A stretch of DNA of 32,000 nucleotides from an uncultured Muribaculaceae bacterium (GTDB taxonomy: Bacteria > Pseudomonadota > Alphaproteobacteria > Rs-D84), in contig OZ246409.1 in assembly GCA_965231035.1 (NCBI GenBank), forward strand, positions 391,101 through 423,100, written 5' to 3'. Below are positions 5,557-16,066 of this stretch, one piece after another (the stretch's first letter is position 1; each line of letters begins with the position of its first letter). A program made the translations under genes and the position numbers. The notes under the pieces are model-generated. The model worked only from the letters and a program-made list of their open reading frames with translations, made no database searches and was not told the DNA's origin.

Positions 5557-5632
5557 GGGTGCGTAGCTCAGTTGGTAGAGCAACTGACTCTTAATCAGTG
5601 GGTCTGGGGTTCGAATCCCCACGCGCCCACCA
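5557..5632 (+). tRNA. tRNA-Lys (anticodon CTT), CCA encoded
   Basis: Hand-folded cloverleaf: acceptor GGGTGCG/CGCGCCC (one T-G pair), D arm GCTC-AGTTGGTA-GAGC, anticodon arm ACTGA-CTCTTAA-TCAGT, variable GGGTC, T arm TGGGG-TTCGAAT-CCCCA, discriminator A, then CCA. Confidence 0.9.
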
Positions 5633-6406: not shown

Positions 6407-8032
6407 TTATTTATAAAATTCAATCTCTTGCTCACTGAACTTTTCGTACTTACTTGCTATATCAAACAATGTTTGCAGGTTTATGGTGGCTGGTGCGTTG
6501 CCAGACATAATCGTGTTTATAATCTTTGGTGACATATAACAAAGATTTAAATACTTATAAACCGTTCGATGGTCGCGACCCATTTTGGTGGCAAGTTTTC
6601 GGACGGACATTCCATTCTCAATTTCACGTTTATACTTCCAGGCGTATGCCAATGCTCGTACCAGTGTGTTATTATTTTCTGATTTGGTCATTATTAATTT
6701 TTCACCACATTGGTGTTTATAGATAATTGAACTGGTACTGGCGATACTTATTTCTGTTTCAATCACAATATATTTTTCATCATCTGTTAAATAGCAATTT
6801 TCCATTTGATTATTAAATGCATTCATATAATTTTTATCTGTAAATATATCCAAATACTTCAAATCATCAGAGTTTATAAAAATCGTGATTTTATGGTCTT
6901 GATAAATAATCTTATCAATCATTGGGTTTATAATTGCCTCCGTATATTTAATCTGCTTAAACATCAGACGCTTTTCAGATGGCAGAAAGTTCATATCAGA
7001 ATCTAAAAACTGCCGCACAGTGTCAGATACTATTTTATCAATATGTCCCATTGGAATAGAATGCTTGCCAGCGCGATAATATTTGTATTGTTTTATACCT
7101 TTACGCCCAGATGAATTCTTGAACACCGTACCCGAAGTTGTTTGTATTTTATTATTTAATAAAGATGGTGCTCTTTTACAAACTGCATCACCACGATTAT
7201 TATTATTTTTTAATTTTTCTTGAACATTATTAAATAATTCTATATCAAGTATTTCAGGATGTTCGCCTTCAAAAATATCACCACTGGATTTATTTGGTAA
7301 TTTACCAAGAAATATAGGATTGGTCAGAAACCTTTGTAAAATTGATACGCCCATAATGTTGCCACCAATAGTTTTTCCTTTTTCTGTAATCCATTTTTTA
7401 CCATAAATCCCTTGTTCAATTAAACGTAATCTGCAATCAGACAAAGATGATGATTCCAGATAGGTTTCAAATATTTTCCGCACTATTGGAATCTCTGACT
7501 CATTCGGTACCAGCTTGTGAAACTTTATATCGTACCCCATTGGTGGCTTACCACCGACCCACATCCCCTTGGACTTGGTTGCGCGTATTTTATCGCGTAT
7601 ACGTTCGCCAGCAACCTCACGTTCAAACTCTGCAAACGACAGTAACATATTCAGCGTTAATTTACCCATGGCGCTATTGGTGTCAAAACTTTGTGTGATA
7701 CTGACAAGATTACAATTATGTTTATCAAACTCTTTCATCATACTTTTAAAGTCAAAAATACTGCGCGACAATCGGTCAATTTTATAAACCAGAACGCAGT
7801 CAATTCTGCCACTACGAATATCAGTCAGCATTTCTTGTAAAGCGGGTCGCACCATTGTTCCACCAGAAATCGCGGCATCACTGTAAGTTTTAATATATTC
7901 CCAACCTTGGAACGTCTGGGACATAATGTATGCCTTAGCGGCTTGTTCCTGGTTGTCCAATGAATTAAATTCCTGATCCAGGCCATGCTCGCTGGACTTA
8001 CGCACATAAATTGCACATCTTACATTTGCCAT
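6407..8032 (-). CDS. large serine recombinase (resolvase/invertase catalytic domain plus recombinase domain plus long C-terminal extension)
   Basis: N-terminus VRCAIYVRKSS (catalytic Ser region), VLVYKIDRLSRS, EFEREVAGERIRD, then GGKPPMGYD of the recombinase domain; about 540 aa total. The ATG at 8032 (MANVRCAIY) has AAGGA 6 nt upstream; an alternative upstream ATG is at 8056. Confidence 0.85.
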   Translation of the reverse strand: MANVRCAIYVRKSSEHGLDQEFNSLDNQEQAAKAYIMSQTFQGWEYIKTYSDAAISGGTMVRPALQEMLTDIRSGRIDCVLVYKIDRLSRSIFDFKSMMKEFDKHNCNLVSITQSFDTNSAMGKLTLNMLLSFAEFEREVAGERIRDKIRATKSKGMWVGGKPPMGYDIKFHKLVPNESEIPIVRKIFETYLESSSLSDCRLRLIEQGIYGKKWITEKGKTIGGNIMGVSILQRFLTNPIFLGKLPNKSSGDIFEGEHPEILDIELFNNVQEKLKNNNNRGDAVCKRAPSLLNNKIQTTSGTVFKNSSGRKGIKQYKYYRAGKHSIPMGHIDKIVSDTVRQFLDSDMNFLPSEKRLMFKQIKYTEAIINPMIDKIIYQDHKITIFINSDDLKYLDIFTDKNYMNAFNNQMENCYLTDDEKYIVIETEISIASTSSIIYKHQCGEKLIMTKSENNNTLVRALAYAWKYKREIENGMSVRKLATKMGRDHRTVYKYLNLCYMSPKIINTIMSGNAPATINLQTLFDIASKYEKFSEQEIEFYK

Positions 8033-8147
8033 ATTTATCCTTTTGATTATGCCCATTTACGCTCTGTTGGGACGCGAAGTCAAGTCGTTAAAACACTTGA
8101 TTTATAAGGTTTTGTAAGCATTAGTATGTATGTAAAAGAGGCAAGAT

Positions 8148-8471
8148 ATGGATAAAAAGCAACAGCAATATATGGCACAATGTAAAGTTACAGGTTATAA
8201 GATAGAACAAAAGCATTTAAGTAAATTGAATAAGTATTTAAAAGACCCAGATGGTTGTATCGAGCGTTCAATTAAAACAAAATATTATATAAAACCAGGC
8301 ACAAGAATTACGAAAAAATACAAAGGAAAAGAATACATTGTGACAGTGATTTCAGAAAACAAATTTATGTATAAAATGGATACTTTTGAAACACTATCAG
8401 CAGTAGCTGTCGCAATAACCGGCCATAAAGTTTCCGGTTATGAATTCTTTGGTTTTTATAATAAGCATTAA
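8148..8471 (+). CDS. DUF2924-like small protein (common partner of large serine recombinases)
   Basis: C-terminal pattern GTRITKKYKGKEYIVTVISENKFMY...FETLSAVAVAITGHKVSGYEFFGF resembles the DUF2924 signature (GT.l.R.wkG..h.V.v...gf.y.g..y.SLSaiA..ITGt.wsG..FFGl). Divergent from the recombinase gene. Confidence 0.55.
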   Translation: MDKKQQQYMAQCKVTGYKIEQKHLSKLNKYLKDPDGCIERSIKTKYYIKPGTRITKKYKGKEYIVTVISENKFMYKMDTFETLSAVAVAITGHKVSGYEFFGFYNKH

Positions 8472-8486
8472 AGTAGCTGAAACATA

Positions 8487-8515
8487 TTGAATTTATAAAT
8501 ATTTTAAAGTAAAAT
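8487..8515 (+). promoter_or_regulatory. candidate sigma70-type promoter for the Hsp70 operon
   Basis: TTGAAT, 17 nt, then TAAAAT, about 24 nt upstream of the 8539 start codon. AT-rich background makes chance matches likely. Confidence 0.3.
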
Positions 8516-8538: not shown

Positions 8539-8907
8539 ATGAGCGCAGAAAATATAAATTTTACAGGCAATGATAAATTTTTAGAATTTATAGTAGAAAT
8601 TTGGCGCCTTCCAAAATTATTCAAAAAGCTTATTGCAAAACAAGATTATAGCGAGCAACAAAAATACGTAAGTCAATTCAACTGGTTTAATAAAAAAGCT
8701 CTCGATTTTTTACAAAGTGAAGGACTCTCTTTTCCGGAATATGAAGATATGCCTTTTGATGTGGGTATGCCACTAACACCAATCAACATAGGCGATTTTA
8801 GTTCGGAAGATGAGTTGGTAATTGAACAAATACTGGAACCTGTTATTATGAAAGGTGACAAAATTATCAAAGCTGGCACAGCAATTCTAAAAAAGGCAGA
8901 GAAATGA
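8539..8907 (+). CDS. truncated GrpE-like protein (putative nucleotide exchange factor for the adjacent Hsp70)
   Basis: 122 aa. C-terminal half GLSFPEYEDMPFDVGMPLTPI...ELVIEQILEPVIMKGDKIIKAGTAILKKAEK parallels the GrpE beta-domain (G...G.pFDP..H.A......V..v.q.GY.l.gr.iR.A.V.V.K). The stop overlaps the Hsp70 start (ATGA). SD AAGGAT upstream. Confidence 0.5.
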   Translation: MSAENINFTGNDKFLEFIVEIWRLPKLFKKLIAKQDYSEQQKYVSQFNWFNKKALDFLQSEGLSFPEYEDMPFDVGMPLTPINIGDFSSEDELVIEQILEPVIMKGDKIIKAGTAILKKAEK

Positions 8908-11399
8908 AAAATTTTATCGGAATAGATTTAGGAACAACAAACAGTGCGATATGTTCGTATGACGGTGAACACGTGCGTATTTACAAAAGCCCTGATCAGA
9001 CCGATGTGACACCATCGGCAATTTACATTGATAAGCGTGGTAATAAGTATGTTGGAAAGCGTGCTTATGATTATATACCAAACGATCCTGATAACGTGGC
9101 TGTAAGGTTCAAAAGGCTGATGGGGACAAACACCCCAATAGAAATACCGAACCTAGGCAAGACAATGCTGCCAGAAGAATGCTCTGCCGAAATCTTAAAA
9201 GTTTTATTTAATTATCTGCCAGATGAACTACAAAAAGATCCCGATATAGGCACGATTATAACCACCCCAGCGGCGTTCAATCAGATGCAGAAAGAGGCAA
9301 CCCTGCAAGCAGCAAACATGGCTGGTATCGGGAAAGTTGCGCTTATGCAAGAACCTGTAGCGGCAATCATGAGCGTTATGAAAACGCGCCCTGAAGATGG
9401 GATTTTTCTAGTTTATGACTTAGGCGGCGGCACATTGGATGTCGCTGTAGCGGAAAGTATCAATGGTCATGTAAATTTACAGAGTCATGGCGGTATAGCA
9501 ATGTGTGGCGGGCGTGATTTGGATCGTCTATTGGTGGAAAATGTTGTTTATCCATGGCTTAGATCGAACTTTGATTTATCTTCTGAATTTTGGAATGATC
9601 CGAAATATAAATCGTTGGTACGTTTGGTTGCATATGCAACAGAACGCGCAAAAATAGATTTGTCTGCAAAAGAGGACGCAACAATCAGTCTATCAGAAAA
9701 TGAGGTGCGTATAAAAGATGATAAGAATGCTGATATATATTTGGACATCCCTGTAGATCGTAAAACTTATAACGGACTGATTTCAGAACGAATAGATGAA
9801 ACAATCAAAGCGGTTCGTGAAACCTTAGATAAGGCAGGATTGAAACCCGATGATGTAGTGCGGATTGTTTTTGTAGGTGGCCCGACTTGCTATAAACCGT
9901 TACGTGACAAAGTGTCTTCCGAACTAGGGATTCCAGCAAACACAGACGTAAACCCTATGACTGCAGTTGCTGAAGGTGCAGCTATATTTGCAGAATCAAT
10001 AGAATGGTCTTCACAGGATCGGTCGCGCAAAAACATGCGTGGCTCTGTCGAAGCACAAGGCGTTGTAAATGTAAAATTTGATTTTATCGCAAGAACTCCA
10101 GATGTAAAAACTAAGTTGGTAGTCAAACTGCCGGAAAAGACAAAAGGTAAATTTGAATTTCAGATTGATTCCACCGACTCTGGGTGGTCATCGGGTAAAT
10201 TATCATTGAAAGACGGGGTGACTATAGACTTAGTGCTGTCGAAGTTTGGCGAAAACAATTTTAAGGCATTTTTATTTAACGAAATCGGCGAAAGTATTGC
10301 ACTTGATCCGAATAAAATTGTGATCACACGAACTGCTGCAACAATCGACTCTATTCCGGCATCACATTCTGTCGGTATTGAAGTGTTGGATAAACTTGGC
10401 GGAACACCGATGTTGGATTATATGGTACGTTCTGGCGATACTTTGCCAAAACGCGGCAAGATGCAATTCAAGGCGGCTAACACATTGAAATCTGGTGATA
10501 CAGGCTCATTGAATTTCAAAATATGGGAAGGTGACATTGTGTCACCGATACTGGACAATCGTCTTGTTGGGGTTATGAAAATCACAGGAAAAGATTTTGA
10601 CGATGGGGTTATCCCTGCAGGTGCTGACATAGACCTATCATATGAAATGTCTGACGATGGAAACATACGTCTTGAAATAACGATACCAAGTATTCGTGGC
10701 TCGTTCAACTCTGGTCGAAACTTCTATTCGCGCCAAGAAGGACAACGTGACTATTCTGAAGCACCAGAGGCAATTAAAGAAGACGCAGAGTCTACAAAAT
10801 TACGTGCTGATGAAATGGCGACACATATAAGCGATCCCGAATTAGATAAGACAAGACAAAAACTAGATGAGGCATCATCGATATCCTCAGACGAAGTAGA
10901 TCCAGAAAAGACAAAAGAAGCCGAAGAAAAAGTATTCCAAGCAAAAAAAGATCTTGCCGTTATTCGCAAAAAACACTTGCGTGAAATACGACAGATGGAA
11001 TTAGATAATAAAACAGACTTTTTTAACAAATCCTTGCGCGAACATGCCACACCAGCTGACAAGTCCGCATTTGACAATTTGATAACAAGCGCAAAACGAG
11101 TAATTGATCGTGACACCAATGAATTTGAAGATTTCATAAACGAAATGGGCAGTAAAATTACGTCTGTACTTTGGAAGATGGACTGGTTTATTGTCGCAAA
11201 ATTCAAACATCTTGCTGAAAAACCATTTCTGTTCCAAGACAAGCCAAAGTTTAATATGCTGGTTAAAGAGGGATTAAGTGCAATACAACAGGATGACATT
11301 CCACACCTGCGTCAAGTGGTTGCTGAAATGACAATGATACAAGTTGGTGGCAGTTCAGGAATTGAAGATATGGACATTACAAACATCGTCAGAGGATAA
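8904..11399 (+). CDS. atypical Hsp70/DnaK-family ATPase (831 aa) with an inserted beta-rich module and a long helical C-terminus
   Basis: NBD motifs GIDLGTTNS, ITTPAAFNQMQKEATLQAANMAGI, LMQEPVAAIMS, VYDLGGGTLDVAV, IVFVGGPTCYKPLRDKV and NPMTAVAEGAAIFA. SBD-beta-like SVGIEVLDKLGGTPMLDYMVRSGDTLPKRGKMQFKAANTLKSG...FKIWEGD...IDLSYEMSDDGNIRLEI. Confidence 0.9.
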   Translation: MKNFIGIDLGTTNSAICSYDGEHVRIYKSPDQTDVTPSAIYIDKRGNKYVGKRAYDYIPNDPDNVAVRFKRLMGTNTPIEIPNLGKTMLPEECSAEILKVLFNYLPDELQKDPDIGTIITTPAAFNQMQKEATLQAANMAGIGKVALMQEPVAAIMSVMKTRPEDGIFLVYDLGGGTLDVAVAESINGHVNLQSHGGIAMCGGRDLDRLLVENVVYPWLRSNFDLSSEFWNDPKYKSLVRLVAYATERAKIDLSAKEDATISLSENEVRIKDDKNADIYLDIPVDRKTYNGLISERIDETIKAVRETLDKAGLKPDDVVRIVFVGGPTCYKPLRDKVSSELGIPANTDVNPMTAVAEGAAIFAESIEWSSQDRSRKNMRGSVEAQGVVNVKFDFIARTPDVKTKLVVKLPEKTKGKFEFQIDSTDSGWSSGKLSLKDGVTIDLVLSKFGENNFKAFLFNEIGESIALDPNKIVITRTAATIDSIPASHSVGIEVLDKLGGTPMLDYMVRSGDTLPKRGKMQFKAANTLKSGDTGSLNFKIWEGDIVSPILDNRLVGVMKITGKDFDDGVIPAGADIDLSYEMSDDGNIRLEITIPSIRGSFNSGRNFYSRQEGQRDYSEAPEAIKEDAESTKLRADEMATHISDPELDKTRQKLDEASSISSDEVDPEKTKEAEEKVFQAKKDLAVIRKKHLREIRQMELDNKTDFFNKSLREHATPADKSAFDNLITSAKRVIDRDTNEFEDFINEMGSKITSVLWKMDWFIVAKFKHLAEKPFLFQDKPKFNMLVKEGLSAIQQDDIPHLRQVVAEMTMIQVGGSSGIEDMDITNIVRG

Positions 11400-11402
11400 G
11401 CA

Positions 11403-12824
11403 ATGAAAAAAGATCCATGGTTCCCGAAAGAATATGAACCAACAAAAGGCGTGGTAGCAAAGTCCATGGTTTTTGTTGGCGACAAATGGCAGATATATAG
11501 ATTGGCTGACGGACAAAATATGCTGGTCGTTCGACCAGATTTGGCCGCTCTTTGGGAATCTAAAAAGCTTCTAGGTAAATCTATTTTAACCACCATAAAG
11601 TTTGGGGGAGAAGAGTTCAAGTTCTTAGTTTCTTCAGACAGATACATTCTTGCCCCGATTGATTACAACTTTTTCGCTGTAAATAAAGTCACAGCATTGG
11701 CATTTGCCACCGCACTTCGTGAATCGCGCAAGATTATGTCAGATATTTCATTCGAAGATTCTTTGTACACAGAACAATTTTCACGATTACTTCCAACCTC
11801 AGAATTACAGCAGGAAACCGATGATGGACTGTTGCTTGGAACTTGGTTGACTGGAGGTGTTCCCGTTTCAACAAAATCAATCCGTAGATTACAGAATTTG
11901 ACTTTGAACTTTTCTATGGGCGATCTTGAAGAAATCATTGAAGATGCCGGATTAACAGTACCAACAGTAAAAGGTGTGACGAAGAGTGCACCTAACAGTA
12001 CCGAGAAAGTAAAACAAAAAAGCGACAAATTTATATTGACCGGTGCAGAATATCTTGAACAATTTTTTAATGAAAATGTTGTAGATATTGTATTAAATCC
12101 CGAACGATATGAAGCTATGGGGATTTCATTTCCATCACCGATAATTTTGTATGGTAAACCAGGAACAGGAAAAACATACGCGGTCGAAAAATTGGCAGAG
12201 TTCTTGGATTGGCCAGTTTATTCAATTGATTCTGGAAGTGTCGGTAGCCCGTACATACACCAAACTGCGCAGAAAATATCAGCAACTTTCAATAAAGCAT
12301 TTGAAACATCACCAGCAATTGTAATAATTGATGAAATGGAATCTTTCTTGGGTAAACGTGAAGGTTCGCAAGATCATAAGGTGGAAGAAGTTGGCGAATT
12401 TTTGCGACTGATTCCCGAAGCGGCAAAAAATAAGGTGCTGGTTGTCGGTATGACCAATCTTCTTCAAAACATAGACCCTGCAATTTTACGAACAGGACGT
12501 TTTGATCACAAGATAGAAGTACGTATGCCAAGCAAAGAAGATATCAAAACAATGCTGGAAACCGCACTTGCTAAATTACCTGTGGAAGATGGAATTGTAT
12601 TAGATAAAATTGTAGATGCGCTGGTTGATCGTCCAAGATCGGATATCGCATTCATTGTAAAAGAAGCTGCACGTCTGACAGCATTCAAAAATAAAAGCAA
12701 AATATCACAAGAAGAGATGGATGCCTCCCTGCAGACAAAAACAATCAGTGCGGACATAGAACCAAAAAGAAGAACGATAGGTTTCACAGCAGCATCAGAA
12801 ACAAAAACAAAAGAAGACAAATAA
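11403..12824 (+). CDS. classical-clade AAA+ ATPase with an uncharacterised N-terminal domain of about 240 aa
   Basis: Walker A GKPGTGKT (12153-12176), Walker B IVIIDEMES (12321-12341), sensor-1/SRH VVGMTNLLQNIDPAILRTGRFDHKIEV, and lid RPRSDIAFIVKEAARLTAF. Starts 3 nt after the Hsp70 stop. Confidence 0.9.
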   Translation: MKKDPWFPKEYEPTKGVVAKSMVFVGDKWQIYRLADGQNMLVVRPDLAALWESKKLLGKSILTTIKFGGEEFKFLVSSDRYILAPIDYNFFAVNKVTALAFATALRESRKIMSDISFEDSLYTEQFSRLLPTSELQQETDDGLLLGTWLTGGVPVSTKSIRRLQNLTLNFSMGDLEEIIEDAGLTVPTVKGVTKSAPNSTEKVKQKSDKFILTGAEYLEQFFNENVVDIVLNPERYEAMGISFPSPIILYGKPGTGKTYAVEKLAEFLDWPVYSIDSGSVGSPYIHQTAQKISATFNKAFETSPAIVIIDEMESFLGKREGSQDHKVEEVGEFLRLIPEAAKNKVLVVGMTNLLQNIDPAILRTGRFDHKIEVRMPSKEDIKTMLETALAKLPVEDGIVLDKIVDALVDRPRSDIAFIVKEAARLTAFKNKSKISQEEMDASLQTKTISADIEPKRRTIGFTAASETKTKEDK

Positions 12825-12825
12825 C

Positions 12826-14577
12826 ATGAACATACTCCAGAACCCTTTCTACATCCTAGGTGCGACCCCTCGTGATAACCGACAGAAAATTATGGAATTG
12901 TCACAGGAAAAAAGTTTGAGCCTAGATCAATCAGTAGTAACAGAGACGCGATTGATACTTACCACACCACGGAAACGTATAATGGCCGAGATTGCATGGC
13001 TCCCAGGTGTAAGTAATAAAAAGGCACTGGAGCTGATAAAATCATTAAATGGTGCGATAATAGAACAGGACGCTATTTCAAGTTTGCCTGCACTGGCCGG
13101 TCTTAACGTTGTGACCACAATGCTATCTATAATGCAAAAAGCGGTGATACCACAAAAGAATGTTTCTGATATACTTTACAAGATGGCTGTTGATTTCGAA
13201 AGTATTGATACAGAAAAGCTTATAAGAATTCTAAATGAAGATCGCGCGGTCGCAGGTATTTCAGAAATCACAGATATCGCAGCTGTTGATTCAGATTTAC
13301 ATGAGCACAAGCTGACCTGTGTAAAAACAATTCAAGCCTTTTTGCAAAACTACACACAAAAACAAATTACAGCAACCATGTTGTCACTTGTGAATAAAGC
13401 TGTAAAAAATGGGCAAAAGTTGAGTCTAATTGATAGCTTTATAGACAATTTATACGCAATGGAAGTTCAGAAAGGACTACAAAAACTAGAAGATTCAATT
13501 GAAGCGTCTCGGCAGAAGATAAAAACAGGTTTGTCGAAAAAAAATCGCTCGAAAACATATATGACCGGACTGGTAGATGAATTTTTAAAAGAACTAGAAA
13601 ATTTTGATGAAATTATGCAACCTATACAGGTAAGTATGCAACAACGTGGTTTAGAGCACGAGGAAACAAAACATGTTGCAGATGAAGCCCGTGAATGTGC
13701 CATTGATTTGGTTCGAGCAGACGAGATGGAATTGTCGGAAAAAGTACTTTATAAAGTAAAAGAACTTTTTTCAGAACTTGGTTCTGTCGATGATCGTTCT
13801 ATAAGAGATCTGAATGATTTAGAAAATATCAAAAACCAGAATAGGCAACATGCCAAAGATATAACTTGCAAGATTGAGCAAAATGGATTTTGGAGCAACC
13901 ATTCTTTTGAAATTTCAGCAAATGGTATTAAAGTAGACGGAGAGTTAATTTGTAAACTAGAAAACATAAATGCAATACGTTATGGAATTACAAGAAAAAG
14001 CACGAATGGAGTTTATAGTGGAACGGATACTTTATTGGCATTTTCAACATCAGAAAATGAAACAATAATTAACTGGTTGGATCACAGTTCAAATTGGACA
14101 AAGGCTGCGGATTGTTTATGGAAGGCTGTTGGACCTCGTTTAGTTTTTGCGATGGCAAATGAACTAGCGCGTGGTGGAAATATATATGAAATAATTTATG
14201 ACAATAAAGTAAAGCTTGCAAAAACAAATACTTGGACTCCAGTCGAAGAAAAGTTTTTTAAATGGTCCGAAGTAAAAACCATGGTTGTTCAAGGTCAATT
14301 TATAATAGCTGCAAAAGATGGATCCGGATTTATGGCAACATTATCTCTTCAAGATATAGATAACGTACATGTAGCAGAAGCACTTATAAATGTATTTTTT
14401 AATACAGGTGGAACAAATATAAGTCAAGCATTCGGAATAACAAAAGAAGCTGCCAAAAAAGAAAAAAGAATTAAACTTAGCACACCAGTAAGCTTAGTTA
14501 ATTATTCGTTTTTGTGGTCTTGGTTCTGGGTTGTTTTTATAGGGGTTTTTTTGATAGTTTGGGCAGCAAATTCTTGA
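12826..14577 (+). CDS. tail-anchored protein with a J-domain-like N-terminus (no HPD), coiled-coil middle and C-terminal TM helix
   Basis: N-terminus NPFYILGATPRDNRQKIMELSQEKS...ETRLILTTPRKRIMAEI resembles J-domain helices II and III (DYYEILGV....eIkkAY..L / ayevLsdp.kR..YD), but no His-Pro-Asp is present. C-terminus LVNYSFLWSWFWVVFIGVFLIVWAANS is hydrophobic. Starts 1 nt after the AAA+ stop. Confidence 0.6.
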   Translation: MNILQNPFYILGATPRDNRQKIMELSQEKSLSLDQSVVTETRLILTTPRKRIMAEIAWLPGVSNKKALELIKSLNGAIIEQDAISSLPALAGLNVVTTMLSIMQKAVIPQKNVSDILYKMAVDFESIDTEKLIRILNEDRAVAGISEITDIAAVDSDLHEHKLTCVKTIQAFLQNYTQKQITATMLSLVNKAVKNGQKLSLIDSFIDNLYAMEVQKGLQKLEDSIEASRQKIKTGLSKKNRSKTYMTGLVDEFLKELENFDEIMQPIQVSMQQRGLEHEETKHVADEARECAIDLVRADEMELSEKVLYKVKELFSELGSVDDRSIRDLNDLENIKNQNRQHAKDITCKIEQNGFWSNHSFEISANGIKVDGELICKLENINAIRYGITRKSTNGVYSGTDTLLAFSTSENETIINWLDHSSNWTKAADCLWKAVGPRLVFAMANELARGGNIYEIIYDNKVKLAKTNTWTPVEEKFFKWSEVKTMVVQGQFIIAAKDGSGFMATLSLQDIDNVHVAEALINVFFNTGGTNISQAFGITKEAAKKEKRIKLSTPVSLVNYSFLWSWFWVVFIGVFLIVWAANS

Positions 14578-14594
14578 TTGTGAGCACAAAATAA

Positions 14595-14888
14595 ATGAAT
14601 AAAAAAACATATTTAATATTGGCTTGTATTTTGCTGAGTATAGCGTTGTTACCTTTACCTTATGGTTATTATCAAATTTTAAGATTAGTAATTTTTATTT
14701 TGTCTGTTTGGATATTGATAGATAGTAATAATAAAGAAATAAGTTTACCAATCGGATTATTTATTACAGCAATTATTTATAACCCAATTTATATTATTCA
14801 TTTTGAAAAATCTGTATGGTCTTTATTTAACATTATTACATTAATTTATTTTATTTATCTGATATCACACAATAAACATAATGCATAA
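14595..14888 (+). CDS. small integral membrane protein (about 3 TM segments)
   Basis: 97 aa, with three hydrophobic stretches (YLILACILLSIALLPL, ILRLVIFILSVWILI, LFNIITLIYFIYLI) and a PYGYYQILRLV motif. Lies 17 nt after the preceding stop on the same strand. Confidence 0.55.
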   Translation: MNKKTYLILACILLSIALLPLPYGYYQILRLVIFILSVWILIDSNNKEISLPIGLFITAIIYNPIYIIHFEKSVWSLFNIITLIYFIYLISHNKHNA

Positions 14889-14913: not shown

Positions 14914-15079
14914 AAAATTTCCCTGATACCCAAAATAAATTCCCTGTTAATTTTTTAGGGAATTTGGGTGGTATGGATTTTGGAAGGCTTGGTTTACATA
15001 GGTTCTGGCAGATTGGTGTCGACAAAGACAGGTAAAATATGGGGTAAAAATGAAAATATTCCCTGTAAATTCCCTGTTA
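14914..15079. repeat. cluster of short iterated (A/T)TTCCCTG motifs, including an exact 13-nt direct repeat and a 9-bp inverted repeat
   Basis: AAATTCCCTGTTA occurs at 14937-14949 and again at 15067-15079. AAATTCCCT (14937-14945) pairs with AGGGAATTT (14957-14965). Additional copies: TTTCCCTG at 14918-14925 and TATTCCCTG at 15057-15065. Confidence 0.8.
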
Positions 15080-15133
15080 TTTGAAATTCTGGGATGGGAA
15101 ACGTTGGTGCAGATTACGCCACCACCAGAAAAT

Positions 15134-15163
15134 AAAAACCACCATTTTGGTGGTTTTATTTTT
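15134..15163. terminator. bidirectional-looking rho-independent terminator
   Basis: AACCACCA-TTT-TGGTGGTT hairpin (15137-15155) with an A-run upstream and a T-run downstream. Confidence 0.6.
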
Positions 15164-15495: not shown

Positions 15496-16017
15496 ATGAA
15501 CAAAACTTTTGTATTACTAAAACAACTTTTTAACTTTAAACCAACAATAATAAAACAGGAGTATGAACTAAAAAACGATACAAATATAAATAATAAAAAA
15601 ATTTCCAAGTACCACAGTGTATCATACGAAGAACTTCGAGAAAATACTTTCGTTGAACTTTTTCTTGAAGAAAAATTCAATAAAGTTCAAGAAATAAACC
15701 TTGTATATTCGGAAATACAAACTTTATTATATCTTAAAGAAGACGTATCTAAACAGTTAGTTCAGAAATTAAAAGAATCTCTGGAAAAATATGAAAGAAT
15801 CGATTGGCCAGCCGTTAAATCTGTAACGAAAAAAGCAACTCCAACTCGTACAGTTTTAACCCATTTCAATTTTATCAAGAGAACACTTCAGATGTCACAC
15901 GAGCTTTACTCGGATATAAAACAAACTGAAATGGCAAGGGCACAAGAAATTTACACAATGGTTGATATTAGAAAAAGGAATATAGTTTCATCTTGGGTTC
16001 CCTCTATGAGTATGTAG
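15496..16017 (+). CDS. hypothetical protein (173 aa)
   Basis: Strong SD (TTAGGAGGGAAAACATATG) and a GC-rich terminator follows. No family recognised. Confidence 0.55.
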   Translation: MNKTFVLLKQLFNFKPTIIKQEYELKNDTNINNKKISKYHSVSYEELRENTFVELFLEEKFNKVQEINLVYSEIQTLLYLKEDVSKQLVQKLKESLEKYERIDWPAVKSVTKKATPTRTVLTHFNFIKRTLQMSHELYSDIKQTEMARAQEIYTMVDIRKRNIVSSWVPSMSM

Positions 16018-16034
16018 TTTTCTATACTCATAAT

Positions 16035-16066
16035 AAAAACGCCCCGAAAGGGGCGTTTTTATTTTT
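16035..16066. terminator. bidirectional rho-independent terminator between the 15496 ORF and ppdK
   Basis: AAAAACGCCCC-GAAA-GGGGCGTTTTT followed by ATTTTT, located between convergent genes. Confidence 0.85.

What the first reader, a model, noticed from the sequence alone, without database searches (positions are those of the whole stretch)
8539..14888. Mobile five-gene operon: a divergent Hsp70 triad wired to an AAA+ ATPase and two membrane proteins, a candidate novel conflict/defence system
Seen directly: five co-directional ORFs have almost no intergenic space. There is an ATGA overlap at 8904-8907, a 3-nt gap before 11403, a 1-nt gap before 12826 and a 17-nt gap before 14595. The products are: (1) a 122-aa GrpE-beta-domain-like protein; (2) an 831-aa Hsp70 with every NBD signature motif and an SBD-beta-like segment, but with about 120 extra residues where the interdomain linker should be; (3) a 473-aa classical AAA+ ATPase (Walker A/B, second region of homology with RTGRFD) with an unrecognised N-domain; (4) a 583-aa protein whose first 60 aa or so read like a J domain without HPD and which ends in a TM helix; (5) a 97-aa 3-TM protein. 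Established knowledge: GrpE, DnaK, DnaJ and the AAA+ disaggregase ClpB form the bacterial bi-chaperone machine. Here every component is replaced by a strongly divergent paralogue, fused into one operon, tethered to the membrane, and carried next to a serine recombinase beside a tRNA gene. It is therefore accessory rather than housekeeping. I do not recognise this architecture as any named defence or stress system. Inference: it may be an abortive-infection or anti-phage module. In that model the Hsp70 SBD senses foreign or non-native protein, and the AAA+ ATPase or the membrane proteins act as effector. Alternatively it may be an MGE-encoded dedicated remodelling machine for a membrane client.
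Basis: partly seen in the sequence, partly recalled or inferred. Interest (0 to 1): 0.92.

Follow-up and report, generated by a model that had tools for sequence, protein, structure and literature searches.

The report
Mobile Hsp70–AAA+ four-gene cassette
A divergent Hsp70 chaperone, a small GrpE-like partner, an AAA+ unfolding ATPase and a membrane-anchored J-like adaptor form a tightly conserved cassette that moves between at least a dozen bacterial phyla and usually sits among anti-phage and mobile-element genes, so it is a strong but untested candidate for a chaperone-based defence system that no paper I could search describes.

Summary
Five co-directional ORFs lie at exactly the stated coordinates and junctions.

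Domain assignments:
- The Hsp70 nucleotide-binding domain and the classical AAA+ module are unambiguous.
- The SBD-beta assignment is supported by profile-profile alignment (probability 74%, P=3e-5).
- The J-like (P=4e-4, no HPD) and GrpE-like (29/67 sub-threshold Pfam hits) assignments are plausible but unproven.

The conserved unit is four genes, not five: small protein, Hsp70, AAA+, J-like. In 61 of 64 informative loci these four occur in the same order, across 12 or more phyla. The family is rare: about 0.1% of species genomes, 14 of 72,556 plasmids and 0 of 50,697 phages. DUF6804 is a variable fifth gene.

Eight of ten annotated contexts hold restriction-modification, Gabija-like, toxin-antitoxin, integrase, Tn7-like or conjugation genes.

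Most relatives also encode single-pass, often peptidoglycan-binding, membrane proteins with a hyperconserved cytosolic N-terminal motif, KGF(S/A)GLSxLxSD. The window's variant lacks these; its J-like protein is tail-anchored in the membrane instead.

No PADLOC or NCBIfam model and no searched paper covers this architecture.

Best reading: an accessory, membrane-associated Hsp70/AAA+ remodelling machine, probably a conflict or defence system. Its function and effector are inferred, not shown.

The parts
5557..5632 (+). tRNA-Lys (CTT), at the left edge of the putative integrated element
   Evidence: ARAGORN; Rfam tRNA 73.9 bits
6407..8056 (-). Large serine recombinase (Resolvase + Recombinase domains, C-terminal HTH), the likely integrase of the element
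   Evidence: Pfam Resolvase E=7e-38, Recombinase E=2e-10; NCBIfam CcrB/XisF-like, below the cut-offs
8148..8471 (+). DUF2924 protein, divergent from the recombinase gene and directly upstream of the operon
   Evidence: Pfam DUF2924 E=1.4e-16
8487..8515 (+). Sigma-70-like promoter match upstream of the first operon gene. This is a consensus match only.
8539..8907 (+). Gene 1: 122-aa small protein, a candidate GrpE-like nucleotide-exchange factor (two predicted helices followed by a beta region). Its stop overlaps the Hsp70 start (ATGA).
   Evidence: ORF. The 4-nt overlap is conserved in 60/68 loci. Pfam GrpE is the commonest sub-threshold hit, in 29/67 family members, best E=0.0035. The AF2 model is poor, pLDDT 46.
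8904..9995 (+). Gene 2, Hsp70 nucleotide-binding domain (aa 1-364), with catalytic motifs intact
   Evidence: Pfam HSP70 E=4e-51. 2v7y DnaK E=1e-50. D8, K70, E150, D172-T177 and G325-T328 are invariant.
9996..10343 (+). Gene 2, inserted segment specific to this family (aa about 365-480) between the NBD and the linker/SBD. No family match.
   Evidence: No Pfam hit. It lies outside the NBD and SBD alignments. It is highly conserved.
10344..10820 (+). Gene 2, linker-like DxxP motif, SBD-beta and the start of the lid (aa 481-639)
   Evidence: hhalign against a DnaK/HscA/HscC SBD profile: probability 74%, P=2.8e-5, 131 columns, DnaK 392-523. HMMER alone does not detect it.
10821..11399 (+). Gene 2, C-terminal helical extension (aa 640-831). 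It is conserved across phyla, and its similarity to the DnaK lid is not significant.
   Evidence: Conservation. The second hhalign hit, to the DnaK lid, has P=0.09-0.13 and is not significant.
11403..12062 (+). Gene 3, N-terminal domain of the AAA+ protein (aa 1-220). It is specific to this family and matches no known family.
   Evidence: No Pfam hit. An HMM built from six family N-domains (window included) matches the AAA gene of every intact system. Conserved residues are listed.
12075..12824 (+). Gene 3, single classical-clade AAA+ module with Walker A, Walker B, an aromatic pore loop (GSPYIH) and RTGRFD
   Evidence: Pfam AAA E=5e-29. NCBIfam CDC48/FtsH/PAN-like, all below cut-off. Motifs at least 95% conserved in 74 sequences.
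12826..13005 (+). Gene 4, N-terminal four-helix J-like domain without HPD (aa 1-60)
   Evidence: AF2 helices at 7-11, 19-29, 35-46 and 48-56, pLDDT above 90. hhalign against a J-domain profile gives P=3.8e-4, probability 36%, in register, with a 13-residue deletion over the HPD loop. No member hits Pfam DnaJ.
13006..14505 (+). Gene 4, long helical region (to aa 346), then a beta-rich domain (aa 348-510) and a tail carrying the conserved hydrophobic-Ser-x-hydrophobic-hydrophobic motif (NISQAF; S533 is nearly invariant)
   Evidence: AF2 model pLDDT 91. No significant PDB fold match. The tail motif RLSxLL occurs in 69/88 homologues.
14506..14577 (+). Gene 4, C-terminal transmembrane tail anchor (aa 561-583)
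   Evidence: AF2 helix 561-582. Hydropathy 2.39. Present only in type-A relatives.
14595..14888 (+). Gene 5: 97-aa DUF6804 small membrane protein, a variable accessory and not part of the conserved core
   Evidence: Pfam DUF6804 E=3e-17. Three hydrophobic segments. Homologues in only 4 of 88 loci.
15135..15157 (.). Bidirectional intrinsic-terminator-like hairpin that closes the operon

Best explanation
The window carries the minimal, 'tail-anchored' variant of a widespread, horizontally transferred four-gene machine.

Components:
1. A small GrpE-like protein, translationally coupled to gene 2.
2. An 831-aa Hsp70. It has an intact ATPase domain, a family-specific inserted domain, a divergent peptide-binding SBD-beta and a long helical C-terminus.
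3. A single-ring classical AAA+ ATPase with an aromatic pore loop and a family-specific N-domain.
4. A 550-590-aa adaptor. Its N-terminus looks like a J domain that has lost the HPD loop. Here its C-terminus is a membrane tail anchor.

Shown: the genes, their domains, their strict co-occurrence and order, their patchy distribution across phyla, and their location in defence islands and mobile elements.

Inferred mechanism. The three chaperone-like parts run a dedicated Hsp70 cycle at the inner face of the membrane, in which the adaptor recruits and the small protein resets. The Hsp70 SBD, or the AAA+ N-domain, recognises a short conserved peptide. In most relatives this peptide is KGF(S/A)GLSxLxSD at the cytosolic N-terminus of partner membrane proteins, and RLSxLL (NISQAF here) in the adaptor tail. 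The AAA+ ring then threads or extracts the bound protein.

Inferred function. Because the cassette is cargo of integrative elements, Tn7-like transposons, plasmids and conjugative-element variable regions, and sits next to restriction-modification and other defence genes, its most likely role is a conflict or anti-phage system. In that model a change at the envelope or a foreign protein triggers ATP-driven remodelling of the membrane partners, leading to abortive infection or a block of phage development. In this window the membrane partners would be the tail-anchored adaptor itself and the DUF6804 protein.
For: Co-occurrence and coupling.
- The four genes occur in the same order in 61 of 64 loci with enough flanking DNA. 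The other three are decayed or incompletely detected.
- The ATGA-type overlap between gene 1 and the Hsp70 gene is kept in 60/68 loci.

Conservation and distribution.
- Hsp70 is 60-85% identical over its full 831 aa in Alpha-, Gamma- and Deltaproteobacteria, Verrucomicrobiota, Elusimicrobiota and Nitrospirota-like bacteria.
- J-like relatives occur in 174 of 185,579 species genomes from 12 or more phyla.
- The Hsp70 C-terminal region has 711 cluster representatives.
- Both ATPases keep their catalytic and pore residues.

Domain assignments.
- SBD-beta homology: probability 74%, P=2.8e-5.
- J-like: P=3.8e-4.
- GrpE is the top recurrent sub-threshold Pfam family, 29/67.

Membrane link.
- TM tail and DUF6804.
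- 62 of 88 loci encode 1-2 motif-bearing single-pass proteins, often with PG_binding_1.

Context.
- Type I RM adjacent in L002, L004, L006 and L178.
- F-type tra genes on both sides in L001.
- Integrase, toxin-antitoxin and RadC genes in L006; integrase and Fic in L178.
- Tn7-like TnsABCDE cargo.
- TaqI-like RM plus an OLD/UvrD pair.
- Pooled neighbours are rich in N6_Mtase, ResIII, Type ISP, MmeI, integrase, TraG, and PADLOC MTase_I, IIG, mad2/8, PbeA and PDC-M27C.
- In the window the cargo sits beside a serine recombinase and a tRNA, and the operon's GC (39-42%) is above that of its flanks.
Against: - No recognisable toxin, nuclease, protease or pore-forming effector is present.
- No experiment links any member to phage resistance.
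- The neighbourhood evidence has no matched genomic control, and two close relatives (L179, L180) sit next to housekeeping genes.
- The J-like and GrpE-like assignments are below every curated threshold.
- A J domain without HPD cannot stimulate Hsp70 in the canonical way.
- The small-protein structure model failed (pLDDT 46).
- The peptide-motif recognition step is pure inference, and the window's variant lacks the motif-bearing partners.
- The family is absent from the phage collection. That fits a defence role but is equally compatible with a stress-tolerance cargo.
Confidence: 0.5

Rival explanations
1. It is a mobile proteostasis or envelope-stress module, not an immune system. It would be a dedicated chaperone/unfoldase set that inserts, maintains or extracts its own cognate membrane (often peptidoglycan-binding) proteins, or improves tolerance to heat or membrane stress. 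The transmissible stress-tolerance islands that carry ClpK/ClpG, small heat-shock proteins and an FtsH homologue are the analogy (from my own knowledge).
For: - Every recognisable part is a chaperone or unfoldase type with intact ATPase motifs.
- There is no effector domain.
- All variants are membrane-associated, and the partners carry PG_binding_1 and RDD domains.
- Two relatives lie among housekeeping genes.
- The specialised Hsp70 systems HscA/HscB and HscC/DjlC are precedents.
Against: - The cassette is very sparse (about 0.1% of species) and patchy across phyla.
- It lies repeatedly next to RM, Gabija-like and toxin-antitoxin genes and inside Tn7 or ICE cargo sites.
- A housekeeping-like client would not explain the extreme divergence from DnaK/GrpE/DnaJ or the loss of HPD.
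Confidence: 0.25
2. It is a maintenance or competition module of the mobile element: an addiction system, an exclusion system or an anti-plasmid system. It would act for the element rather than for the host against phages.
For: - In the window it is almost the only cargo of a roughly 10-kb element bearing a serine recombinase.
- It is found inside an F-type transfer region, on 14 plasmids of which 7 are conjugative, and as Tn7-like cargo.
Against: - Many copies are chromosomal, with no element genes within 10 kb.
- There is no toxin/antitoxin-like pair.
- Four large, strongly conserved ATP-consuming proteins are costly for simple addiction.
Confidence: 0.15
3. It is an actin-like (MreB/ParM-type) filament system for DNA or organelle positioning, with the Hsp70-like protein acting as a polymer.
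For: Pfam MreB_Mbl hit, E=3.5e-16. Conflict systems with Hsp70 proposed to form assemblies are discussed in PMC7159879.
Against: - The Hsp70 model fits far better (E=4e-51) and DnaK structures are the top hits.
- The Hsp70-specific SBD-beta is present.
- The MreB hit reflects the shared actin/Hsp70 fold.
Confidence: 0.03

Closest known systems
E. coli HscC with its tail-anchored co-chaperones DjlC/DjlB (atypical Hsp70 system of unknown role)
   Same: - An atypical, non-essential Hsp70 is encoded beside co-chaperones of roughly 480-580 aa.
- Those co-chaperones have an N-terminal J(-like) domain, a long helical middle and a C-terminal transmembrane tail anchor.
   Different: - HscC is 556 aa, with no inserted domain and no long C-terminus.
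- DjlB/DjlC keep an HP(E) motif.
- That locus has no GrpE-like gene and no AAA+ gene.
- Beyond the J region, the 583-aa family shows no detectable similarity to DjlC/DjlB (hhalign P=0.33).
DnaK-DnaJ-GrpE plus ClpB bi-chaperone disaggregase
   Same: It combines an Hsp70, an exchange-factor-like protein, a J-like protein and a pore-loop AAA+ unfoldase. The grpE-dnaK-like gene order and coupling are kept.
   Different: - The AAA+ has one classical-clade module closest to CDC48/FtsH/PAN models, not the two-ring ClpB with an M-domain.
- The J-like domain lacks HPD.
- The GrpE-like protein has only the C-terminal half.
- The system is membrane-tethered, accessory and horizontally mobile.
HscA-HscB-IscU (a dedicated Hsp70 that recognises one conserved client peptide, LPPVK)
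   Same: This is a working analogy: a specialised Hsp70, a dedicated adaptor, and clients marked by a short invariant peptide. Here the peptide would be KGF(S/A)GLSxLxSD or RLSxLL.
   Different: There is no Fe-S context. Client recognition here is inferred only, and an AAA+ partner is added.
Hsp70-containing conflict systems predicted by comparative genomics: GAP1-N2 GTPase systems with Hsp70+GrpE+DnaJ-FNIII (PMC7159879) and CoCoNuT CnuD Hsp70-like proteins (PMC11090510)
   Same: Hsp70 (with GrpE and a J-domain protein in the first case) is recruited into accessory, often membrane-proximal, conflict-type gene neighbourhoods, some with peptidoglycan-binding domains.
   Different: - The operon has no GTPase, tubulin, McrBC or HEPN component.
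- The ATPase motifs are intact, unlike the degenerate Walker A-like motifs described for CnuD.
- The partner here is a classical AAA+ ATPase.
ietAS (IetA AAA+ ATPase with IetS protease) and Zorya (envelope-anchored, peptidoglycan-binding sensor with cytosolic effectors)
   Same: - The AAA+ core hits PADLOC IetA models (E=4e-27).
- The broader family couples PG-binding membrane proteins to cytosolic ATPases. This is conceptually like Zorya (from my own knowledge).
   Different: - There is no IetS-like protease, and the IetA hit covers only the generic AAA core.
- There is no MotAB-like ZorAB.
- SNF2 or DEAD helicases accompany only 11 of 88 loci.

Membership tests
Hsp70 (PF00012) | Actin-fold nucleotide-binding domain with phosphate-1, phosphate-2 and adenosine motifs and the catalytic Lys/Glu | tested here: met
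   Pfam E=4e-51, aa 5-364. DnaK structures E=1e-50. D8, G10, T11, K70, E150, D172-T177 and G325-T328 are invariant.
Hsp70 (PF00012) | Beta-sandwich substrate-binding domain following a conserved linker | tested here: met
   hhalign probability 74%, P=2.8e-5; aa 481-639 align with DnaK 392-523 in register. HMMER does not see it. It is displaced by an insert of about 115 aa.
Hsp70 (PF00012) | Alpha-helical lid | tested here: inconclusive
   The region after the SBD is not covered by any model. The lid alignment is not significant (P=0.09-0.13).
GrpE (PF01025) | Sequence match to the GrpE profile at the curated threshold | tested here: not met
   No hit for the window protein at E<=0.1. GrpE is nevertheless the most recurrent sub-threshold family, 29/67 members, best E=0.0035. 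hhalign against E. coli GrpE alone gives P=0.35.
GrpE (PF01025) | Helical hairpin plus C-terminal beta domain fold, and binding to Hsp70 NBD subdomain IIB | tested here: inconclusive
   The AF2 model has pLDDT 46 (helices 12-33 and 37-60, then strands), too poor for a fold search.
J domain (PF00226) | HPD tripeptide in the loop between helices II and III | tested here: not met
   HPD is absent. The alignment to J domains needs a 13-residue deletion over that loop.
J domain (PF00226) | Four-helix J fold or profile similarity | tested here: inconclusive
   A confident AF2 model shows four short helices. hhalign against an 8-sequence J profile gives P=3.8e-4, probability 36%. Pfam DnaJ matches none of the 25 members scanned, even at E<=10. 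The whole-chain Foldseek search is dominated by the helical region.
Classical AAA+ ATPase (PF00004) | Walker A, Walker B, second region of homology with arginine fingers, and pore loop 1 | tested here: met
   Pfam E=5e-29. GxPGTGKT, IDEME, GSPYIH and RTGRFD are at least 95% conserved in 74 sequences.
ClpB/Hsp104 disaggregase | Two AAA+ modules with a coiled-coil M-domain that docks Hsp70 | tested here: not met
   One AAA module in 473 aa. The best NCBIfam models are CDC48, FtsH and PAN. There is no Clp hit except ClpX at E=0.005.
ietAS defence system | IetA ATPase paired with IetS serine protease | tested here: not met
   The IetA models hit only the AAA core (E=4e-27). Nothing in the operon matches an IetS or protease model.
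Any system in PADLOC-DB v2.0.0 | Profile match of the Hsp70, the small protein and the J-like protein | tested here: not met
   No family at E<=0.1 for these three proteins.
GAP1-N2 GTPase-centred conflict systems (Kaur et al. 2020) | TRAFAC GTPase and GAP1 core genes next to Hsp70/GrpE/DnaJ-FNIII | tested here: not met
   No GTPase or FNIII domain is found in the five operon proteins or the immediate flanking ORFs. The definition is taken from PMC7159879.
HscC-DjlC/DjlB type system | Homology of the adaptor to DjlC/DjlB beyond the J domain | tested here: not met
   hhalign of A1 against DjlC/DjlB gives P=0.33. Only the domain order is shared: J(-like) domain, helical region, TM tail.
DUF6804 (PF20619) | Profile match above the gathering score | tested here: met
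   63 bits against a cut-off of 27, E=3e-17.

The most novel reading that the evidence does not exclude
This would be the founding example of a chaperone-based bacterial immune system. A dedicated Hsp70 cycle (Hsp70, GrpE-like exchange factor, HPD-less J-like adaptor) coupled to an AAA+ unfoldase would read out a conserved peptide handle on envelope-spanning sensor or effector proteins, or would capture a phage protein directly in the divergent SBD. It would convert that event into ATP-driven membrane remodelling and abortive infection. That sensing and execution logic is not used by any characterised defence system.
Probability: 0.3. Interest if true: 0.92.

Novelty: new variant of a known kind. 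Interest (0 to 1): 0.8.

Why it matters
Hsp70 systems are among the best-understood protein machines, yet almost all known bacterial ones are housekeeping. Here a complete, strongly diverged Hsp70 set is wired to an AAA+ unfoldase and to membrane proteins. It is conserved at 60% identity or more across phyla, moves on integrative elements, Tn7-like transposons and plasmids, and sits in defence islands.

If it is a defence system, it adds a new principle to bacterial immunity: chaperone-type substrate recognition and protein unfolding in place of nucleic-acid or nucleotide chemistry. It would also parallel the roles of eukaryotic Hsp70/Hsp90 in innate immune receptor control.

If it is instead a stress or envelope module, it is still a new dedicated Hsp70-client system with an unusually clear candidate client motif. 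That motif makes Hsp70 specificity and Hsp70-AAA+ cooperation directly testable.

Tried and rejected
- AF2 on the 122-aa protein with the 7 sequences I was allowed to submit gave pLDDT 46, unusable for a fold search.
- HMMER found no SBD (PDB profile searches and Pfam on sub-segments) and no J domain. Only profile-profile alignment with broadened profiles gave a signal.
- I tried to build a GrpE profile. None was found in 80 DnaK loci from viral contigs, and the GrpE scan returned only E. coli-identical copies.
- I looked for att-type direct repeats flanking the element and found none convincing. This is expected for a serine recombinase.
- Helicases as core components: rejected, because they accompany only 11 of 88 loci.
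- MreB-like filament reading: rejected in favour of Hsp70.
- Seven literature searches found no description of this architecture.

Full report
**Observation.** The ATGA overlap at 8904-8907 is visible in the sequence. The gaps of 3, 1 and 17 nt follow from the coordinates. A promoter-like site precedes the first gene (8487-8515). There is no + strand terminator-like site inside the operon, and a bidirectional hairpin terminator lies at 15135-15157. Upstream are tRNA-Lys (5557-5632), a GNAT gene, a large serine recombinase (6407-8056, minus strand) and a DUF2924 gene. Downstream are an unassigned 173-aa ORF and then a housekeeping pyruvate phosphate dikinase-like gene. The operon's GC content (39-42%) exceeds that of its flanks (26-37%).

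**What the proteins are.**
- Gene 2 is an Hsp70. Pfam HSP70 matches aa 5-364 (E=4e-51), DnaK structures are the best PDB matches, and all catalytic positions are invariant in homologues.
- HMMER sees nothing after residue 364, whether with the single sequence, a family profile, or sub-segments. When I broadened both profiles (66 family members against DnaK/HscA/HscC), hhalign aligned aa 481-639 to DnaK 392-523 in register: the LDVTP-type linker end, SBD-beta and the first lid helices (probability 74%, P=2.8e-5).
The helical tail after the SBD was not confirmed as a lid (P=0.09-0.13).
- Gene 3 is a single-module classical AAA+ ATPase (Pfam AAA E=5e-29). Its closest curated models are CDC48, FtsH and PAN, all far below their cut-offs, so it is not a ClpB paralogue. 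Walker A, Walker B, the aromatic pore loop GSPYIH and RTGRFD are at least 95% conserved in 74 homologues. This argues for a working, substrate-threading enzyme. Its 220-residue N-domain matches no family.
- Gene 4 has no Pfam or NCBIfam match. A confident AF2 model (pLDDT 91) shows four short N-terminal helices, a long helical region, a beta-rich domain (348-510) and one C-terminal TM helix. The model has no significant PDB neighbour.
- The N-terminal 60 residues align to a small J-domain profile in the correct register (P=3.8e-4, probability 36%). The alignment requires a 13-residue deletion that removes the HPD loop. Pfam DnaJ hits no family member. The domain is therefore 'J-like without HPD': plausible, not established.
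- Gene 1 has no hit of its own. Across 67 family members, GrpE is by far the most frequent sub-threshold Pfam family (29 members, best E=0.0035; the next family has 14). The gene is translationally coupled to the Hsp70 gene, as grpE-dnaK often is. Its structure model failed (pLDDT 46).
- Gene 5 is a DUF6804 membrane protein.

**Is it a unit, and is it accessory?**
- Full-length Hsp70 homologues of 60-85% identity occur in Shewanella, Marinomonas, Thiohalobacter, Desulfobulbaceae, Thermodesulfovibrionales, Elusimicrobia and Puniceicoccales.
- A scan of one genome per species found relatives of the 583-aa protein in 174 of 185,579 species, spread over at least a dozen phyla.
- In the 80 loci fetched there plus 7 fetched earlier, family HMMs find small protein, Hsp70, AAA+ and J-like in that order in 61 of 64 loci with enough upstream DNA. 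The three exceptions are decayed or incompletely detected copies.
- The 4-nt overlap between gene 1 and the Hsp70 gene is kept in 60 of 68 loci.
- The family-specific Hsp70 C-terminal half has 711 cluster representatives in 1.84 billion. The full-length ones listed are mostly about 820-865 aa.
- The family is on 14 of 72,556 plasmids and in none of 50,697 phage records.
- Hosts such as Comamonas, Shewanella and Achromobacter are expected to carry a canonical dnaK as well (my own knowledge; not checked here), so this is not the housekeeping set.
- DUF6804 follows the cassette in only 4 loci. The conserved core is therefore four genes, not five.

**Context.** Ten annotated neighbourhoods were inspected.
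- One lies inside an F-type transfer region.
- Four lie beside type I restriction-modification genes. Of these, one also has a pP_pnuc_1/ABC-ATPase pair, one has integrase, ParE/RelB, CbeA and RadC, and one has integrase and Fic.
- One lies among helicases and transposases.
- One is the cargo directly after TnsABCDE of a Tn7-like element on a Shewanella plasmid.
- A distant Sinorhizobium variant sits next to a TaqI-like type IIG enzyme and an OLD-endonuclease/UvrD (Gabija-like) pair.
- Two Puniceicoccales copies lie next to housekeeping genes.

A pooled scan of 127 neighbouring ORFs from 67 loci gave these as the commonest families: DEAD/ResIII helicases, N6_Mtase, RadC, Type ISP, MmeI, integrases and TraG/TrwB. 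With PADLOC the commonest were MTase_I, type IIG, mad2/mad8, PbeA and PDC-M27C. This is the pattern of defence islands and mobile-element cargo sites, but I had no matched control.

In 62 of 88 loci the cassette is accompanied by one or two single-pass membrane proteins that otherwise differ. Each starts with a nearly invariant cytosolic motif, K-(K/G)-G-F-(S/A)-G-L-S-x-L-(V/A/T)-S-(D/E). This is followed by a low-complexity linker, a TM helix, a conserved periplasmic module and, often, PG_binding_1 and repeats. The soluble J-like proteins of those systems end in R-L-S-x-L-L (69 of 88). The window protein has N-I-S-Q-A-F at the same place, with a nearly invariant Ser.

The window belongs to a minority 'type A', together with Elusimicrobia, Muribaculaceae and Clostridia relatives. 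Type A lacks the motif proteins, and its J-like protein carries its own TM tail anchor. All variants are thus membrane-associated.

SNF2 or DEAD helicases accompany only 11 loci and are probably neighbours, not core.

**Mechanism: what is shown and what is inferred.**
- Shown: four co-inherited proteins, two of them intact ATPases, one membrane-anchored; a divergent peptide-binding domain; conserved short peptide motifs on partner proteins; location in mobile elements and defence islands.
- Inferred: a dedicated Hsp70 cycle at the membrane, in which the J-like adaptor recruits and the GrpE-like protein resets. It would be specific for the conserved peptide handle, as HscA is for LPPVK in IscU. 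It would hand the substrate to the AAA+ ring for threading or extraction.
- Most likely biological role, at about 50%: a conflict or anti-phage system whose output is remodelling of its membrane partners. In this window those would be the tail-anchored adaptor and DUF6804.
- Main rival, at about 25%: a mobile proteostasis or envelope-stress module, by analogy with transmissible stress-tolerance islands.
- Third option: an element-maintenance or exclusion role.
- No effector domain is recognisable, and nothing here was tested experimentally.

**Comparison with known systems.**
- The nearest architectural analogue is E. coli HscC with DjlC/DjlB. DjlB and DjlC have an N-terminal J domain (HPE) and a C-terminal TM tail. 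There is no GrpE-like or AAA+ gene in that locus, and no homology beyond the J region.
- The DnaK/DnaJ/GrpE-ClpB machine is a functional analogy only.
- Hsp70 has been predicted in conflict systems before: GAP1-N2 GTPase systems with GrpE and DnaJ-FNIII (PMC7159879) and CoCoNuT CnuD (PMC11090510). Their defining GTPase, McrBC or HEPN parts are absent here.
- PADLOC v2 has no model for the Hsp70, small or J-like proteins. The AAA+ core hits IetA generically, without an IetS partner.
- Seven literature searches found no description of this cassette. PGAP names the parts only as 'Hsp70 family protein', 'ATP-binding protein', 'peptidoglycan-binding domain-containing protein' and 'hypothetical protein'.

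**Verdict.** It needs correcting on the core size, the nature of the AAA+ protein and the strength of the J and GrpE calls. I rate it a new variant of a known kind (specialised Hsp70 systems and predicted chaperone-based conflict systems), with a real chance of being a new class of defence system. Interest 0.8.

Noticed in passing
L001-L169 (e.g. L118:7853-9571, L001:15631-16383, L001:16402-18237); absent from the window: 62 of 88 related loci encode 1-2 single-pass membrane proteins that start with a nearly invariant motif, K(K/G)GF(S/A)GLSxL(V/A/T)S(D/E). Then come a TM helix and a conserved periplasmic module, often with PG_binding_1 and tandem repeats. This is a candidate client or sensor handle for the Hsp70/AAA+ machine.
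   Followed up: partly
window 14410-14427 (aa 529-534 of the 583-aa protein) and the C-termini of J-like homologues: The J-like family ends in a conserved R-L-S-x-L-L tail (69/88 loci). The window has N-I-S-Q-A-F with a nearly invariant Ser533. The tail resembles the core of the N-terminal motif on the partner membrane proteins.
   Followed up: partly
window 14936-15082: Three copies of AAATTCCCTGTTA-like 17-mers (at 14936, 15055 and 15066) lie in the 600-nt intergenic region after the operon, just before the terminator hairpin at 15135-15157. They could be a recombinase or regulator binding site. There is no Rfam match in this region.
   Followed up: no
L170 (Shewanella xiamenensis plasmid NZ_CP091834.1): An 11-gene version of the system (with a PG-binding protein, an RDD-family protein and several hypotheticals) lies directly after tnsABCDE as the cargo of a Tn7-like transposon.
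   Followed up: partly
L171 (Sinorhizobium meliloti pSymA CP140953.1): A distant variant (25% identity in the Hsp70 C-terminal half) has a different gene order and no annotated ATPase gene beside it. It sits next to a TaqI-like type IIG enzyme and an OLD-endonuclease/UvrD (Gabija-like) pair. The family may therefore have deeper subtypes.
   Followed up: no
L125:11-3565 and the type-C loci (e.g. L118:841-3528): An SNF2-type helicase that matches the PADLOC candidate PDC-M27C at full length lies directly upstream of one system. Seven type-C loci have an SNF2-like helicase plus an HTH_17 gene 13 nt upstream of gene 1. Four type-B loci have a 1047-aa DEAD helicase downstream.
   Followed up: partly
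window 8148-8471 and 6407-8056: A DUF2924 gene is divergently paired with the large serine recombinase. It could be a recombination directionality or accessory factor of the element. No att-type direct repeats were found around the element.
   Followed up: partly
window 9000-13000 versus its flanks: The operon's GC content (39-42%) is clearly above that of the surrounding DNA (26-37%), which is consistent with recent acquisition.
   Followed up: no
window 15496-16017: A 173-aa ORF with no family match lies between the operon terminator and the housekeeping PPDK-like gene. It ends at a strong terminator (16032-16063). It is unclear whether it belongs to the element.
   Followed up: no
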